Origin: a virus
Lineage: Duplodnaviria; Heunggongvirae; Uroviricota; Caudoviricetes
Virus record (IMG/VR): IMGVR_UViG_2513237361_000016
Length of the DNA: 10,740 nucleotides
Reading direction: 5' to 3' (one strand)
Position numbers and translations under genes: made by a program. Position 1 is the stretch's first letter, and each line of letters begins with the position of its first letter. This document shows positions 6,525 to 10,740 of the stretch, piece by piece. The notes under the pieces were generated by a model that was not told where the DNA came from, made no database searches, and worked only from the letters and a program-made list of their open reading frames with translations.

Positions 6525-7370
6525 TTACTGATAAGTAACAGAAATATTCAGCGGTGCTTTCCATACAGTTGTTTGCGTTACCGGGTTTGTGAAAGTCAAT
6601 TCGAGAGTTTGACCAGACTTAATCCCCATTGCATAAGTAGCAGATGCACCTCTCCCGGTCATGTCTGAAGACTGAGCGTATGTTGAAGCTGCGATATTGA
6701 TAATCGTCGGATCAAACGCGGCCAGCTGATTCAACATATCTACAGCTTCAAGCCCCCCCATAGATCGAGCAAAGTTTATCGCATTCATCCCATGATTGAT
6801 AGCACCTTCTGCAATCGTTGGGACGCCGCCGTGGAAAATATCATTTGAAGTGTCAGCAATAATAGAAGCAGCTACCCCACGTTGCCGTGCCGCATCAGCC
6901 GCCATACGAGCACCAGCAGCAGTCATGTTCACTTTTGCCTGACCAATCGGAGATGATTGAGCATCAATAACTGGAATCTCTAAATAGCCAGTACCTGCAT
7001 TACCTACATTGTCAAATACCGGAGTGATCTTTCCTTTTTGATAGTCAGAGAACGCAATTTGAGGAATTGCTAAGCTGGTAGCATCAGTTGCCATAAATGC
7101 TTCATTAGTTTTACCCAGCAAAATAGCGGCATTCTGAGCTGCAGTAATCACTAATTTTTTGCCGCCATCAGTCATTTCTTTTACATTACTATCAAAAGCG
7201 CCTAAACTTGTTCCTGTTTTCCAGGCCCACTTCTGCGCAAAGTTATCACCAACAGTAACACTGCCGCCAATATCAACGGAATCGTTAAAGTTACCGTTAG
7301 TCCATGCCATGGCAGAACCAGATACTGCAGCAGAGGCAGCCACAGCCAGTGCAATCAGAGTCTTTTTCAT
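6525..7370 (-). CDS. FaeG-like (K88/F4 fimbrial major subunit family) secreted protein
   Basis: Signal peptide MKKTLIALAVAASAAVSGSAMA. Segments QKWAWK, KLVITAAQNAAILLGKTNEAF, IPQIAFSDY and C-terminal YAMGIKSGQTLELTFTNPVTQTTVWKAPLNISVTYQ align by eye with FaeG as recalled from memory. AAGGAA Shine-Dalgarno precedes ATG at 7370. Confidence 0.65.
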   Translation of the reverse strand: MKKTLIALAVAASAAVSGSAMAWTNGNFNDSVDIGGSVTVGDNFAQKWAWKTGTSLGAFDSNVKEMTDGGKKLVITAAQNAAILLGKTNEAFMATDATSLAIPQIAFSDYQKGKITPVFDNVGNAGTGYLEIPVIDAQSSPIGQAKVNMTAAGARMAADAARQRGVAASIIADTSNDIFHGGVPTIAEGAINHGMNAINFARSMGGLEAVDMLNQLAAFDPTIINIAASTYAQSSDMTGRGASATYAMGIKSGQTLELTFTNPVTQTTVWKAPLNISVTYQ

Positions 7371-7618
7371 AAAATAATTTCCTTGATATTTCATAAATAA
7401 TAAACTGAAATCGGTAATCCTTATTTTTCTGAGTCGTAAAAATCAGCACGTACGAATTCAAACTCTGCCATAAAAGAACATATAAGTAATTTATTAACAT
7501 ATAGATATAGGTTATATTACAAATTGAAAAATTATTGGAGAGCAACAATGAATCAAAATCCATTCTCATTCTATGACTTTCTTGGATATTTAATACCAGG
7601 TGGTTTTTTATCCTATTA

Positions 7619-8413
7619 ATGTATTTCTGTGGTTTGACATTCGATCTAGATATTGTTATTGACTTAAGTGAATTGCTCAGAGGTCAAAGTCAAATCTTTG
7701 GCATTTTGAACTACGCTTCAATAGTTATTATATCTTATATAGCTGGACATTTTATTTCTATCACATCAGCATTTTTTATCGAAAAATACATGAATAAAGA
7801 ATTAGGATATCCTTCCAAATATCTATTTAAAAAATTGATAGATACCTCAGAAAGCATTTGTAGCCCATCATGCGATGAGAGAAGCGCTGATAAAAAAACA
7901 AAAATAAAGAATCGCATAATCAAATGCGTATTATGTCCAATAATACTATGGGATTTTATAACACAAAAACTATGTTATTCTCAATCTCTACCATTTCATT
8001 TAGCTAATACAACATGGTTAATGATCAAAGAAGGTTATGAGAAAAAGTTCATAACAAATCGCCAATTATTACAAGATAAAAACGGACTTGATGATGATCT
8101 CTTCAGATTGGCATATCATTATGTTTATGAGTTTTCAAAACAACATCAAACAAAAATTCAAAACTATGTTGCATTATATGGTTTTTGCAGAAACATATGT
8201 TTAATCTTTATAATTTCATTTTGGGTATCAGTTCCAACCTTTATTTATCGATTATGTACTCATAGTGATTATCTTTATAGTTTACTTTCAATAATGCTTA
8301 GCTTTTTCTTCGTCTATGTTTTCTATGTTGGTTTTGTTAAATTTTATAGAAGATATACTTTAGAAGTATTAATGGCATTTGCTGTACTTCAAAGTAACGA
8401 CACTATTCGTTAA
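7619..8413 (+). CDS. AT-rich multi-pass membrane protein of unknown function
   Basis: 264 aa with several hydrophobic segments (IFGILNYASIVIISYIAGHFISITSAFF, ICLIFIISFWVSVPTFIY, LLSIMLSFFFVYVFYVGFV). Markedly AT-rich compared with neighbours. Start ATG 7619 overlaps (TAATG) the stop of a 23-codon upstream ORF that begins at ATG 7548 with a GGAGAG Shine-Dalgarno. Confidence 0.5.
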   Translation: MYFCGLTFDLDIVIDLSELLRGQSQIFGILNYASIVIISYIAGHFISITSAFFIEKYMNKELGYPSKYLFKKLIDTSESICSPSCDERSADKKTKIKNRIIKCVLCPIILWDFITQKLCYSQSLPFHLANTTWLMIKEGYEKKFITNRQLLQDKNGLDDDLFRLAYHYVYEFSKQHQTKIQNYVALYGFCRNICLIFIISFWVSVPTFIYRLCTHSDYLYSLLSIMLSFFFVYVFYVGFVKFYRRYTLEVLMAFAVLQSNDTIR

Positions 8414-8454: not shown

Positions 8455-8661
8455 ATGCTGAACCTCGATTGTGTTCCTATCTCAACTTATTGCAAAGAAA
8501 CTGGCGAAACTCCTGAAGCAATAAACAAACGTGTACAGCGCGGTGTTTGGCGTGAAGGTGTTCAGGTTTTAAAGGTTGAAGGCGTTAAGGAGAGGTGGAT
8601 TGATCTTAGTGAGGTTGCAAAATGGGCCAGACAAAACTGCTCAAACTACCGCGCGGCGTAA
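8455..8661 (+). CDS. xis: Excisionase-like protein
   Basis: Small basic ORF directly upstream of and overlapping the integrase gene. GGAG sits 7 nt before ATG 8455. Earlier in-frame ATGs at 8416 and 8443 are alternative starts. Confidence 0.5.
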   Translation: MLNLDCVPISTYCKETGETPEAINKRVQRGVWREGVQVLKVEGVKERWIDLSEVAKWARQNCSNYRAA

Positions 8662-9794
8662 CAATCAGGAAACACCGCCAGGGAGAAACGATCAATATAA
8701 CTTTCACCTACAAAGGAGTTAGATGTCGTGAGCCGCTTTCCAATCTGGAAGTAACACCAAAGAACATTAAATACGCCGAGCGTACACTCGGCGAAATCCA
8801 TAATAAGATCGAAAGGGGAACATTCATTTATGCAGAATATTTTCCCCGTTCTGCTCGTTTGAAAATTTTTGGTAATGCTGCTGCAAGCAAAACGGTAAAG
8901 ATGTACCTGGACGAATATCTTGAAATCTGCGAAACAAGAAAACTTTCACCCTCTACGATTGGTGGCTATAAAAAATGCCGTAGTGCGTTAGCCTCACTTC
9001 ACATTTGCCCTGCAAGTGAATTAACACCAGCAACCCTGAAAGCGTGGATTCAAAGCCAGAAAACAACCTTAAAAACCATTCGCAACCAGTTATCTTTCCT
9101 ACGGTCAGCACTTGATGAAGCCGTGACCGATGGGGTACTTCAAATTAACCCCGTATCGTTAGTAACAGCTTCGCGCTACCAAAGTGATAAGTCAGAAGCA
9201 GAAAGCAGCTATGTGGTTGATCCGCTATCACCAGCAGAAGTTGATGCATTACTAGCAGCAGCCGGAAACAAACAATGGGAAAATCTGTTCCGGTTCGCCA
9301 TACATACAGGCCTGCGTAGTTCTGAATTATGTGCCTTACGATGGCATGATATCGACTTTGTTGGAAAAACAGCCCATGTTCAGAGCGCAAGTGTTGTCGG
9401 AGTTATCAAAGGAACAAAGACAAAAGCCGGTACCCGTAAAGTTGAACTGACTGAAGAAGCAATGTTGGCGTTGATAAACCAGAAGCCATTTACATTCATG
9501 AAGGATGCTACTGTCTTTGAAGATCCAAAGACCAATAAACCCTGGGCAAGTGCTGATGCAATTAGGAAAAAAGCATGGGTGCCAACATTGCGAAAAGCAG
9601 GTATTCGTTACAGAAACCCATATCAAACCAGGCATACATTCGCCACCAGCCATATCAGCCGGGGAGCAAACCTGTTTTGGCTTGCGGCTCAAATGGGCCA
9701 TAAAGGGCCTGAAATGTTATTCAGGCACTATGGACAATACTTGAAAGAGTATGATGGGAGGGCAAGTATCAAGGATAAAAAGGCTTTATTTTAA
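8622..9794 (+). CDS. int: Tyrosine site-specific integrase
   Basis: 390 aa. Catalytic-domain residues are visible: Arg in HTGLRSSELCALRW, the His-x-x-Arg motif in RHTFATSH, and the nucleophile Tyr in RHYGQY. N-terminal arm-type DNA-binding region. Confidence 0.85.
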   Translation: MGQTKLLKLPRGVTIRKHRQGETINITFTYKGVRCREPLSNLEVTPKNIKYAERTLGEIHNKIERGTFIYAEYFPRSARLKIFGNAAASKTVKMYLDEYLEICETRKLSPSTIGGYKKCRSALASLHICPASELTPATLKAWIQSQKTTLKTIRNQLSFLRSALDEAVTDGVLQINPVSLVTASRYQSDKSEAESSYVVDPLSPAEVDALLAAAGNKQWENLFRFAIHTGLRSSELCALRWHDIDFVGKTAHVQSASVVGVIKGTKTKAGTRKVELTEEAMLALINQKPFTFMKDATVFEDPKTNKPWASADAIRKKAWVPTLRKAGIRYRNPYQTRHTFATSHISRGANLFWLAAQMGHKGPEMLFRHYGQYLKEYDGRASIKDKKALF

Positions 9795-10403
9795 GTCATT
9801 ATGCCAATCGTCTACTGTTTGAAACCAAATTTTTAACCTTTGCATAAAGGTACGATCCTTTTTGGGAGGGTGGTACCTTTGAAAAGAAGTATGTAACGCT
9901 TCGATAACTCCCATACAAGCATCAATTACTTCTTGTGCTTTAACCGGGCGATCGGCATCTGAAAGCTTGTGAGCGACCTCACAATCCAGAGTTGCTTTCT
10001 CTAGTACAGATGAGAACACCTCGTCAGGTATATACAGTCCTCTGCTTTCCAAAATGCAAATCAGTTTGGAAACTTGTTGAGCTTTAGCCAAGATAGTTAA
10101 CAAGTATGAAACAGAAGCCTTTGTTCTATCCTTTTGCAACCTTAACAATCGATGCTTTGATGCTCTAATTTTAGGTTGAGTTGTCTGACTGAGCCAATAG
10201 TTAGAAGAAATATCAGAAATTTCAATAACTAACTTTGAAATAGCATCAATAATTGATTTCGATTCAGAACGTGTCGCCAGTTTTACAGAATTATTGTACG
10301 CAACTCGCCATCCAATGAAAACTAAGCAGACGCTAACTACTGTGATACACCACGAATACTGTCCTATTTGTGCTACTAATGACATTGGTTCCGTACTGAT
10401 CAA
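9786..10403 (-). CDS. Membrane-anchored protein of unknown function (N-terminal TM helix)
   Basis: 205 aa with a hydrophobic N-terminal segment (YSWCITVVSVCLVFIGW) and a charged, helix-rich remainder. TTG start at 10403 has GAGG 6 nt upstream; alternative ATG at 10385. Its 3' end overlaps the integrase 3' end by 9 nt. Confidence 0.45.
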   Translation of the reverse strand: MISTEPMSLVAQIGQYSWCITVVSVCLVFIGWRVAYNNSVKLATRSESKSIIDAISKLVIEISDISSNYWLSQTTQPKIRASKHRLLRLQKDRTKASVSYLLTILAKAQQVSKLICILESRGLYIPDEVFSSVLEKATLDCEVAHKLSDADRPVKAQEVIDACMGVIEALHTSFQRYHPPKKDRTFMQRLKIWFQTVDDWHNDLK

Positions 10404-10413
10404 CTATCGCCTC

Positions 10414-10740
10414 TTATACTCTTTCTGGTTGTGCTAAATCAATAAATTTATCAATCTGTTCTTTGTAGAACGGAACATCACTTTTTATAATCAAACGTGC
10501 TTTAACGTTGGCTTTAGGTATCCCTTCCTTACGGATGAGACCTCCAAACGCCTCTTCTAAGAAAGAGGAACCAACACCCAGTGCTATACCGCGAAAATCA
10601 ACCACAATCTCCTGTTCAGTACCCTTCAGCGCAGGCACCAAAAACTCTCTACGAAATCTTTCCGCACTGTGTGGGCTATCCGTTGTGTAACGTCCGAAAG
10701 GTGTTCTGGAGAACTCCTTCGCTATGACGATATTTCTCAT
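10414..10740 (-). CDS. Small STAS-like (anti-sigma-antagonist fold, DUF4325-like) protein
   Basis: 108 aa. Pattern IVVDFRGIALGVGSSFLEEAFGGLI resembles STAS-like domains as recalled from memory. ATG falls at the window edge (10740-10738). Stop lies 10 nt before the start of the downstream membrane-protein ORF. Confidence 0.4.
   Translation of the reverse strand: MRNIVIAKEFSRTPFGRYTTDSPHSAERFRREFLVPALKGTEQEIVVDFRGIALGVGSSFLEEAFGGLIRKEGIPKANVKARLIIKSDVPFYKEQIDKFIDLAQPERV

What the first reader, a model, noticed from the sequence alone, without database searches (positions are those of the whole stretch)
7548..8413. AT-rich multi-pass membrane protein upstream of xis, with TAATG-coupled leader or homopolymer frameshift
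This gene is strikingly AT-rich next to its neighbours and encodes a protein with roughly four hydrophobic segments and a soluble middle region. A 23-codon ORF with a good Shine-Dalgarno (ATG 7548) ends in TAATG overlapping its start. Adding one T to the T6 run at 7604-7609 would fuse the two into a single protein with a continuous hydrophobic N-terminus (...FLGYLIPGGFFILLMYFCGLTF...). This is either a coupled leader peptide or a slippage-prone or frameshifted start. Membrane proteins at this position in prophages are often superinfection-exclusion or abortive-infection factors.
Basis: partly seen in the sequence, partly recalled or inferred. Interest (0 to 1): 0.6.

Follow-up and report, generated by a model that had tools for sequence, protein, structure and literature searches.

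The report
Frameshifted prophage Csx27-like membrane gene
The short "leader" ORF and the 264-codon ORF are two halves of one conserved 288-codon prophage membrane-protein gene, split here by loss of one T from a run of seven; the break is ordinary, but the intact protein belongs to a large uncharacterised family distantly related to the CRISPR accessory protein Csx27.

Summary

Adding one T makes the gene 100% identical to an intact 867-nt CDS in E. coli CFT073. Among 205 complete E. coli genomes with the gene, 184 match the T7 allele exactly and 2 match T6. Homologs down to about 30% identity are single ORFs of about 275-300 aa, and their best-conserved block is the N-terminus that is cut off here. 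The T-run and Met25 are not conserved, and no frameshift-stimulating RNA structure follows the run. So this is neither a coupled leader nor a programmed frameshift.

The deletion bisects TM1 of a 4-TM protein predicted to have both ends in the cytoplasm. The family (phrog_12528; 958 clusters at 50% identity) has no Pfam family and no significant match to a solved or viral predicted structure. It does show reproducible remote similarity to Csx27.

It is stand-alone cargo in phage accessory slots: directly upstream of xis-int, in the nin region, in the P2 old/tin hotspot, and in defence islands. An exclusion or abortive-infection role is plausible (about 0.4) but untested. This copy is most likely inactive.

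The parts
7429..7547 (+). AT-rich upstream region that stays with the gene whatever the upstream neighbour is; contains the Shine-Dalgarno GGAG at 7537-7540
   Evidence: Identity with CFT073 and about 200 other genomes begins at 7429, although their upstream gene is yfdR rather than the fimbrial gene found here. No sigma-70-like promoter was found.
7548..7619 (+). 5' fragment of the disrupted gene: 23 codons plus TAA. Codons 1-20 are the true N-terminus (conserved NPFSxYDFLGYxxPG motif plus the first half of TM1); codons 21-23 are out of frame
   Evidence: In the diverse alignment, residues F6 and Y14 are invariant, and N4 P5 S7 Y9 D10 F11 L12 G13 P17 G18 are at least 90% conserved.
7604..7609 (+). 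T6 homopolymer, the site of a 1-nt deletion relative to the prevalent T7 allele
   Evidence: Alignment with CFT073 (T7) and UM146 (T6). The T7 74-mer matches 184 genomes exactly and the T6 73-mer matches 2. T6, T8 and A+T7 variants exist in other assemblies.
7619..8413 (+). 3' fragment: 264-codon ORF starting at the former internal Met25. It encodes the second half of TM1, TM2, the soluble cytoplasmic domain, TM3, TM4 and the C-terminal helix
   Evidence: Met25 is Leu in homologs at 56% identity or less.
7548..8413 (+). Whole disrupted gene. With one T restored it is the 867-nt, 288-aa CDS WP_001075212.1, family phrog_12528
8455..8661 (+). Small ORF (68 aa as annotated in RefSeq; 81 aa from ATG 8416) that overlaps the integrase start; a putative excisionase by position only
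   Evidence: No Pfam hit. A 69-88-aa ORF occupies this position in about 47 related loci.
8622..9794 (+). Tyrosine integrase (390 aa)
   Evidence: Arm-DNA-bind_2 at E=9e-24 and Phage_integrase at E=2e-16.

Best explanation
Window 7548-8413 is one gene broken by a 1-nt deletion (T7 to T6) at codons 20-21. It is not a leader peptide plus a gene.

The intact gene encodes a 288-aa inner-membrane protein. It has an N-terminal conserved motif, TM1 and TM2, a cytoplasmic helical domain of about 135 residues, TM3 and TM4, and a cytoplasmic C-terminal helix. N-in/C-in topology is inferred from the positive-inside rule. Nearly all conserved polar residues (D10, H68, S74, E79, S90, H191, E195, H200, K203, N206, R215, K265, E273) lie at or near the cytoplasmic face.

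The deletion separates the most conserved motif and half of TM1 from the rest. This copy can make a 23-aa peptide. By termination-reinitiation at TAATG it may also make an N-terminally truncated 264-aa product lacking TM1, which is most likely non-functional (inferred). Whether T6 in this particular assembly is a real mutation or a homopolymer sequencing error cannot be decided without reads. T6 is real in at least one other lineage.

The protein belongs to a large, uncharacterised, stand-alone family (phrog_12528). The family is remotely related to the type VI-B1 CRISPR accessory membrane protein Csx27 but is not an ortholog of it. It travels as cargo in variable accessory slots of temperate phages and in defence islands.

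The most likely function (inferred, about 0.4) is a phage-borne membrane effector used in conflict between phages or mobile elements, either blocking DNA entry or acting as an abortive-infection effector. It is probably transcribed with the early-left operon that ends in xis-int.
For: One gene, frameshifted:
- T7 matches 184 of 205 genomes exactly; T6 matches 2.
- The exact intact protein is on at least 1000 contigs, against 56 for the exact 264-aa product.
- The 83% allele, in a different prophage, is also a single 288-aa ORF with an identical N-terminal 40 aa.
- All homologs are 275-300 aa and cover residues 1-288.
- 958 representatives nearly all start at profile position 1-4.
- The N-terminal motif is the best-conserved block.
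- dN/dS is 0.23 overall, with dN=0 and dS=0.11 in the first 32 codons.

Not programmed:
- The T-run is absent from homologs at 51% identity or less, and is A+T6 in frame in the 78-83% allele.
- Met25 is not conserved.
- The downstream RNA folds at z=+1.56.
- Another allele is broken at a different homopolymer, A7 to A6.

Topology.

Confident fold: pLDDT 90.6, pTM 0.89.

Csx27 link:
- PADLOC Csx27 matches at E=1.4e-5 over residues 6-268, and 76 of 102 diverse members hit it (best 2e-10).
- NCBIfam Csx27 is hit by 19 of 102 members, best 2e-6.
- In the reversed-sequence control, 0 of 10 hit Csx27.

Cargo and defence context:
- The order gene, small ORF, integrase holds in about 47 viral loci with at least 5 integrase size classes.
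- One homolog lies in the nin region.
- One lies in the P2 gpA-gpQ old/tin hotspot (PMC9122126).
- One lies in an island with R-M, Vsr, AbiJ, ParE and HigB; another lies next to AbiH.
- No conserved partner gene was found.
Against: - No read data, so a homopolymer error in this assembly is not excluded. Some assemblies carrying variants are clearly indel-rich (L020 and L022).
- The defence function rests only on guilt by association.
- PADLOC has no stand-alone system built on this protein.
- No sigma-70-like promoter was found upstream. Expression in the repressed lysogen, which classical superinfection exclusion needs, is therefore doubtful.
- The Csx27 similarity is weak for this protein (14.9 bits against the 65-bit NCBIfam cutoff). 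I could not obtain a genuine Csx27 sequence for a direct profile-profile test.
- In frame 0 the T6 allele reads GG-T TTT TTA, an X XXY YYZ heptamer. A -1 slip there would restore the frame, so a low level of full-length protein cannot be excluded.
Confidence: 0.88

Rival explanations
1. Sequencing or assembly artefact: the real genome carries T7 and an intact 288-codon gene, and T6 is a homopolymer miscall in this assembly.
For: The window is 100% identical to a single assembly, GCA_000208565.2. Apart from the missing T, the gene is identical to the intact CFT073 CDS. Homopolymer length errors are typical of some sequencing platforms (general knowledge). Other assemblies with variants at or near this run contain many indels (L020 and L022 have 5-6 gap openings in 3.3 kb). 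T8 and A+T7 variants also occur.
Against: T6 occurs on at least four different flanking haplotypes. It is shared by three independent projects on one haplotype (UM146, ADIR01, OZ040287), so real T6 alleles exist. The exact 264-aa product is called on 56 contigs.
Confidence: 0.3
2. Translationally coupled leader peptide: a conserved 23-codon upstream ORF regulates or couples translation of a 264-aa membrane protein through TAATG.
For: There is a good SD before ATG 7548, and the stop and start overlap in TAATG. Overlaps of this kind can support termination-reinitiation (general knowledge).
Against: The two-ORF arrangement is confined to rare frameshift alleles. In every intact homolog the 'leader' is the in-frame N-terminus and the most conserved part of the protein. 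Met25 is Leu in homologs at 56% identity or less. No SD precedes ATG 7619 (direct reading).
Confidence: 0.02
3. Programmed recoding or phase variation: the T-run is a functional switch, acting by DNA slippage, transcriptional slippage or -1 ribosomal frameshifting on T TTT TTA (7604-7610), that tunes production of a potentially toxic membrane protein.
For: Length variants (T6, T7, T8) recur on several haplotypes. The T6 allele places an X XXY YYZ heptamer in frame 0, and a -1 slip there would give a 288-aa product with F21L (direct reading). Membrane effectors are often toxic, so off-variants might be selected (inference).
Against: A run of 7 is short for a contingency locus (general knowledge). 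Variants are at most about 5% of copies, and about 1% in complete genomes. The run is not conserved in other alleles or homologs. There is no downstream stimulatory structure (z=+1.56). A different allele is broken at another homopolymer, as expected for random indels in AT-rich DNA.
Confidence: 0.06
4. The intact protein is not a conflict or defence factor. It might be a membrane enzyme, a transporter or a phage life-cycle protein, for example linked to DNA modification or DNA transport as proposed for Csx27-like proteins.
For: Conserved His, Glu, Ser, Lys and Arg residues cluster at the cytoplasmic membrane face, which would suit a catalytic or ligand-binding site. Two distant members directly adjoin C-5 cytosine DNA methyltransferases, and a third lies in an island with Dcm, Vsr and HNH. 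The gene sits in the early-left operon without a recognisable promoter of its own. As I recall it, Makarova et al. 2019 predicted ssDNA channels and a DNA-modification-linked subfamily; the paper was not available, and it is cited in PMC7642515 and PMC11662929.
Against: No Pfam or NCBIfam enzyme or transporter family matches. No fold match to transporters is significant. There is no conserved partner gene. The gene is patchily distributed (205 of 5426 E. coli genomes) and is dispensable in frameshifted lineages.
Confidence: 0.3

Closest known systems
Csx27, the accessory membrane protein of type VI-B1 CRISPR-Cas13b systems (Smargon et al. 2017; bioRxiv 10.1101/092577)
   Same: It is a small, helical, multi-pass (about 4 TM) protein with a matching N-terminal region. 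PADLOC and NCBIfam Csx27 profiles are hit reproducibly across the family (76 of 102 and 19 of 102 members), and reversed-sequence controls hit neither.
   Different: There is no cas13b or CRISPR array nearby; the setting is an E. coli prophage. The score is far below the NCBIfam equivalog cutoff (14.9-16.2 bits against 65). The protein is about 80 residues longer, with a larger cytoplasmic insert: 263 residues align to 185 profile positions. Csx27's only known activity, repression of Cas13b, has no counterpart here.
The expansive Csx27-like 4-TM family proposed by Makarova, Gao, Zhang and Koonin 2019 (FEMS Microbiol Lett 366:fnz088). My own recollection of the abstract; cited in PMC7642515 and PMC11662929
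   Same: It has four predicted TM helices and remote similarity to Csx27, it occurs outside CRISPR loci, and some distant members adjoin DNA methyltransferases. This echoes the DNA-modification-linked subfamily described there.
   Different: The associations emphasised there (natural-transformation genes, ubiquitin-system multidomain proteins, WYL-HTH regulators) were not seen in any context I sampled. Here the gene is stand-alone phage cargo. I could not read the paper, so I cannot tell whether this prophage clade was included.
phrog_12528 (PHROGs v4, unknown function)
   Same: Full-length match at E=8e-174, residues 1-288 against profile positions 1-288. This is the family the gene belongs to.
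   Different: No function is attached. The window copy is split by a frameshift.
Phage-encoded membrane exclusion or abortive-infection proteins, such as P22 SieA (PMC10883804), lambda/P22 SieB, and membrane effectors in the P2/P4 hotspots (PMC9122126)
   Same: It is a stand-alone, AT-rich, patchily distributed inner-membrane protein in variable prophage slots, including the P2 gpA-gpQ hotspot that holds old and tin.
   Different: There is no sequence or profile similarity to any of them. It has no recognisable promoter for expression in a lysogen. No phenotype is known.
MotA/PomA/ExbB-type stator subunits (ZorA of the Zorya defence system is of this type; general knowledge)
   Same: They share the gross layout: two TMs, a large cytoplasmic helical insert, then two TMs. 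These are the top Foldseek PDB hits.
   Different: The hits are not significant (E about 1, TM-score about 0.2), and there is no sequence similarity. This is a topological resemblance only.

Membership tests
Csx27 (type VI-B1 CRISPR accessory protein), ortholog | Encoded adjacent to cas13b and a type VI-B CRISPR array | tested here: not met
   The neighbours are prophage genes: CI, CII, K88 fimbrial subunits, a small ORF and an integrase. All 75 viral loci and the sampled contexts lack a cas13b-sized gene next to it.
Csx27 (type VI-B1 CRISPR accessory protein), ortholog | Scores above the NCBIfam NF040557 equivalog cutoff (65 bits) | tested here: not met
   14.9 bits for the repaired protein and 16.2 bits for P0001. 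The best E-value among 102 family members is 2e-6.
Csx27 (type VI-B1 CRISPR accessory protein), ortholog | Represses Cas13b interference | not testable with these tools
   This needs a plaque or interference assay like the one in bioRxiv 10.1101/092577.
Csx27-like membrane protein superfamily (Makarova et al. 2019) | Four predicted transmembrane helices | tested here: met
   Kyte-Doolittle peaks at 12-32, 50-77, 213-234 and 244-266. The AF2 model has matching long helices.
Csx27-like membrane protein superfamily (Makarova et al. 2019) | Detectable profile similarity to Csx27 that is not due to composition | tested here: met
   PADLOC Csx27 matches at E=1.4e-5 over residues 6-268. It is hit by 76 of 102 members (best 2e-10), and NCBIfam Csx27 by 19 of 102. 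None of 10 reversed controls hits it. A direct HMM-HMM comparison with genuine Csx27 sequences was not possible.
Csx27-like membrane protein superfamily (Makarova et al. 2019) | Operonic association with natural-transformation, ubiquitin-system, WYL or DNA-modification genes | tested here: inconclusive
   None of these is in the window. Among distant members there are two direct C-5 DNA methylase neighbours and one island with Dcm, Vsr and HNH. No competence, ubiquitin or WYL partners were seen, and there is no conserved partner overall.
phrog_12528 | Full-length match to the family profile | tested here: met
   E=8e-174, 578 bits, residues 1-288 against profile positions 1-288.
Translationally coupled leader peptide plus downstream gene | The upstream small ORF and the overlapping stop-start are conserved in homologs | tested here: not met
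   Homologs are single ORFs, and the two-ORF state is found only in rare frameshift alleles.
Programmed -1 frameshift or transcriptional-slippage gene | The slippery run is conserved across homologs, with a stimulatory element downstream | tested here: not met
   The run is absent at 51% identity or less and is A+T6 in frame in the 78-83% allele. The downstream fold scores z=+1.56. The heptamer T TTT TTA exists only in the T6 allele (direct reading).
Phase-variable contingency locus | A long repeat tract with frequent on/off length variants within a lineage | tested here: inconclusive
   The tract is only 7 nt. Variants T6, T8 and A+T7 recur on several haplotypes but make up at most about 5% of copies. 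Switching rates were not measurable.
Known superinfection-exclusion or abortive-infection families (SieA, SieB, Abi and others) | Sequence or profile membership in a described exclusion or defence family | tested here: not met
   The only PADLOC hits are Csx27 and tm_4. The PHROG has unknown function. Pfam gives nothing.
Known superinfection-exclusion or abortive-infection families (SieA, SieB, Abi and others) | Protects the host against phage infection when expressed | not testable with these tools
   This needs plaque assays with the intact T7 allele.

The most novel reading that the evidence does not exclude
The intact gene founds an unrecognised single-gene anti-phage or DNA-entry-control system. 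It would be a stand-alone, prophage-borne Csx27-like inner-membrane protein with a fold not yet seen in solved structures. It would gate or collapse the membrane, or block incoming DNA, during phage conflict. The recurrent T-run frameshifts would then be escape mutations that relieve its cost. If so, studying it in E. coli could also reveal what Csx27 does in type VI-B CRISPR systems, which is still unknown.
Probability: 0.25. Interest if true: 0.65.

Novelty: new member of a known kind. Interest (0 to 1): 0.3.

Why it matters
For the window itself this is an annotation point. The locus should be called as one frameshifted gene, not as a leader plus a gene, and no recoding mechanism is needed.

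The wider value lies in the intact family. It is large (958 clusters at 50% identity), uncharacterised, confidently modelled, and without a match among solved structures. It occupies the phage slots where anti-phage genes are usually found. It is also one of the few handles on the function of Csx27, whose mechanism remains unknown. An E. coli prophage homolog (for example in CFT073 or UTI89) is far easier to study than Bacteroidetes type VI-B loci.

Tried and rejected
- **Pfam and NCBIfam.** Pfam on the repaired protein and on 102 family members gave nothing consistent. NCBIfam gave only sub-threshold Csx27 hits.
- **First structure prediction.** With a shallow 15-sequence alignment it reached only pLDDT 56 and was discarded.
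- **Genuine Csx27 sequence.** I tried to fetch one through the Bergeyella zoohelcum CRISPR repeat. cas13b and the arrays were found, but csx27 lies outside the 8-kb loci, so no direct profile-profile test was possible.
- **Makarova et al. 2019.** The paper is not held.
- **Literature by accession or PHROG id.** Nothing found. No papers mention Csx27-like, Csx27 family or Csx27 homolog.
- **Promoter search upstream.** None found with standard or relaxed spacing.
- **Frameshift stimulator.** None found.
- **Conserved partner gene among distant members.** None found.
Full report
**1. Observation**

- GGAG lies at 7537-7540, seven nt before ATG 7548.
- A 23-codon ORF follows (MNQNPFSFYDFLGYLIPGGFLSY). 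Its TAA (7617-7619) overlaps ATG 7619-7621.
- The T6 run is at 7604-7609, and a 264-codon ORF runs to 8413.
- GC is 0.26-0.30 across the gene, against about 0.41-0.59 in most of the window.
- Inserting one T gives a continuous 288-codon ORF.

**2. One gene, broken by a 1-nt deletion**

The region from 7429 onward is present in 205 of 5426 complete E. coli genomes.
- CFT073 annotates an intact 867-nt CDS (WP_001075212.1), while UM146 has a truncated call.
- The three sequences differ only by T7 (CFT073) against T6 (window, UM146).
- With one T restored, the window gene is 100% identical to the CFT073 CDS.
- A 74-mer with T7 matches 184 genomes exactly. The 73-mer with T6 matches only UM146 and MEI008.
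- In the large protein collection, the exact intact 288-aa protein is on at least 1000 contigs (the counter's cap). The exact 264-aa product is on 56.

**3. The N-terminal extension is ancestral and constrained**

- A second E. coli allele (83% nt identity, in 24 genomes, in a different prophage with a PrtN-type neighbour) is also a single 288-codon ORF. Its first 40 residues are identical.
- Homologs in Salmonella, Citrobacter, Klebsiella, Enterobacter, Cronobacter and Hafnia are 275-300 aa and cover 98-100% of the repaired protein.
- The block M-QNPFS-YDFLGY-IPGG is essentially invariant down to 49% identity.
- A profile search of 1.84 billion cluster representatives found 958 relatives (213 at E<=1e-30). 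Almost all are 260-320 aa and start at profile position 1-4.
- In a 102-sequence alignment (27-78% identity), F6 and Y14 are invariant. N4 P5 S7 Y9 D10 F11 L12 G13 P17 G18 are at least 90% conserved.
- Between the two E. coli alleles dN/dS is 0.23. In the first 32 codons dN=0 while dS=0.11.

The 'leader' is therefore the best-conserved part of the protein.

**4. Not a coupled leader, not programmed recoding**

- Met25, the start of the 264-aa ORF, is Leu in more distant homologs.
- No SD precedes ATG 7619 (direct reading).
- TAATG is simply the in-frame CTA-TTA-ATG read in the shifted frame.
- The T-run is not conserved. The 78-83% allele reads GGA-TTTTTT in frame, and homologs at 51% identity or less have no homopolymer there.
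- RNA downstream of the run folds no better than shuffled sequence (z=+1.56).
- Another strain's copy of the divergent allele is broken at a different run, A7 to A6. Random indels in AT-rich DNA would produce this pattern.

One caveat from my own reading. In the T6 allele, frame 0 reads GG-T TTT TTA (7604-7610), an X XXY YYZ heptamer. A -1 slip there would restore the frame and give a product with F21L. Trace amounts of full-length protein cannot be excluded, but nothing suggests this is selected.

**5. Real mutation or sequencing error?**

The window is 100% identical over all 10,740 nt to one assembly, GCA_000208565.2. Reads are not available.

Among loci where the 264-aa product was called, the run is T6, T8 or A+T7. 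T6 occurs on at least four flanking haplotypes. Three independent projects (UM146, ADIR01, OZ040287) share one haplotype and T6. The run is therefore a recurrent indel hotspot, and at least some T6 alleles are real.

For this particular assembly I put the chance of a sequencing artefact at about 0.3. Either way, the functional state is a single ORF.

**6. Consequence of the break**

Hydropathy gives TM1 at 12-32, TM2 at 50-77, a soluble region of about 135 residues, TM3 at 213-234 and TM4 at 244-266. Lys and Arg are concentrated in the middle region and the C-terminus. That implies N-in/C-in topology with a cytoplasmic domain (inference by the positive-inside rule).

The frameshift at codon 20/21 bisects TM1. 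The 264-aa ORF keeps 8 residues of TM1 and lacks the signature motif. The truncated product, if it is made by reinitiation at TAATG, is most likely misinserted and inactive (inference).

**7. What the protein is**

- It matches phrog_12528 (unknown function) end to end, at E=8e-174.
- It has no Pfam family.
- With the 102-sequence alignment, AlphaFold2 gives a confident all-helical model: pLDDT 90.6, pTM 0.89.
- The only recurring similarity is to Csx27, the membrane accessory protein of type VI-B1 CRISPR-Cas13b:
  - PADLOC Csx27 matches at E=1.4e-5 over residues 6-268.
  - 76 of 102 diverse members hit it independently, best E=2e-10.
  - 19 of 102 hit NCBI's Csx27 model, best E=2e-6, all far below its 65-bit cutoff.
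  - None of 10 reversed-sequence controls hits Csx27.

I conclude that this is a remote relative of Csx27, not an ortholog. There is no cas13b nearby. Csx27's only known activity is repression of Cas13b (bioRxiv 10.1101/092577).

From my own recollection, Makarova et al. 2019 described an expansive Csx27-like 4-TM family. It was linked to competence, ubiquitin-like and DNA-modification genes and was predicted to form ssDNA channels. The paper was not available. It is cited in PMC7642515 and PMC11662929.

**8. Genomic context**

*Position in the prophage.* The gene lies on the + strand downstream of the CI-type repressor, on the early-left side, and directly upstream of a small ORF and a tyrosine integrase.

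*Conservation of that position.* In 75 viral or prophage loci, homologs at 46% identity or more show the order gene, 69-88-aa ORF, integrase in about 47 cases. These span at least five integrase size classes. The same order holds in Enterobacter prophages and in Klebsiella phage P7641.

*More distant members lie elsewhere:*
- in the nin region of a lambdoid prophage;
- between gpA and gpQ of a P2-like phage, the interval that Rousset et al. 2022 define as the P2 anti-phage hotspot carrying old and tin (PMC9122126);
- in an island with R-M, Vsr, AbiJ, ParE/Phd and HigB/A;
- next to AbiH;
- in two cases directly beside C-5 DNA methyltransferases.

*Other points.* No partner gene is conserved. 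No sigma-70-like promoter is detectable upstream.

**9. Mechanism: best estimate**

*Shown.*
- It is a single gene with a T7-to-T6 frameshift.
- It has a 4-TM architecture.
- It belongs to a large stand-alone family that is remotely similar to Csx27.
- It is cargo in variable phage slots.

*Inferred.* The intact protein is a phage-borne inner-membrane effector whose conserved cytoplasm-facing polar site gates or senses something. It most likely acts in phage-phage or mobile-element conflict, either blocking DNA entry or as an abortive-infection effector (about 0.4). It is probably expressed with the early-left operon rather than constitutively in the lysogen. A DNA-modification or transport role is the main functional rival (about 0.3). 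This copy is probably null.

**10. Verdict**

The underlying family is of moderate interest. It is uncharacterised, widespread and structurally unmatched, it sits in defence-type slots, and it is a tractable E. coli relative of the enigmatic Csx27.

Noticed in passing
window 5585-6418 (-) and 6525-7394 (-): Two paralogous K88-type (FaeG-like) fimbrial subunit genes (PF02432; E=1.6e-64 and 1.5e-48) sit inside the prophage early-left region. More than 200 other E. coli genomes carry yfdP-yfdQ-yfdR at this position. No usher or chaperone gene is in the window, and only the source assembly (L023) shares this arrangement.
   Followed up: partly
window 1-279 (-); L023 1-1661: In the source assembly the prophage is cut on its left side. 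A 92-aa KilA-N fragment abuts Flavodoxin_2 and KefB-type chromosomal genes, so the element looks like a cryptic remnant lacking structural genes. That fits relaxed selection on its cargo.
   Followed up: no
window 9786-10740 (-); L023 11168-16577: Downstream of int there is variable cargo: a 205-aa ORF with a hydrophobic N-terminus, a DUF4325 STAS-like protein and a 303-aa ORF. In the source assembly these are followed by a second integrase and a 652-aa NACHT/nSTAND protein. CFT073 carries different genes here. This may be a defence-type island at the attachment site.
   Followed up: no
L107 4501-5343 (Escherichia phage vB_EcoM-705R2): A 280-aa homolog (about 42% identity) lies between gpA and gpQ of a P2-like phage, the old/tin anti-phage hotspot defined by Rousset et al. 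2022.
   Followed up: partly
L011 1012-2996; L086 3743-6819; L012 2681-7828: Distant family members sit next to C-5 cytosine DNA methyltransferases. In L011 the two genes overlap by 4 nt. In L086 a 723-aa methylase-domain protein lies directly upstream. The L012 island contains Dcm, Vsr and HNH.
   Followed up: partly
L004 3009-3874 (E. coli OkiPb01688): The divergent 83% allele is independently frameshifted at a different homopolymer (A7 to A6, about codon 165), and RefSeq flags it as 'frameshifted'.
   Followed up: yes
window 2151-3092 (-), especially about 2660-2850: The replication-initiator-like gene (HTH_36 type) contains a short tandem peptide repeat (SKSDASKSDPSKFDASKSG). The ORF translations on both strands there are also repetitive (QILTGQ...), which suggests iteron-like DNA repeats inside the gene, as in lambdoid O genes.
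   Followed up: no
RefSeq annotates it as a 68-aa hypothetical protein (from 8455) that overlaps the integrase start by 40 nt. The excisionase assignment rests on position and size only.
   Followed up: partly
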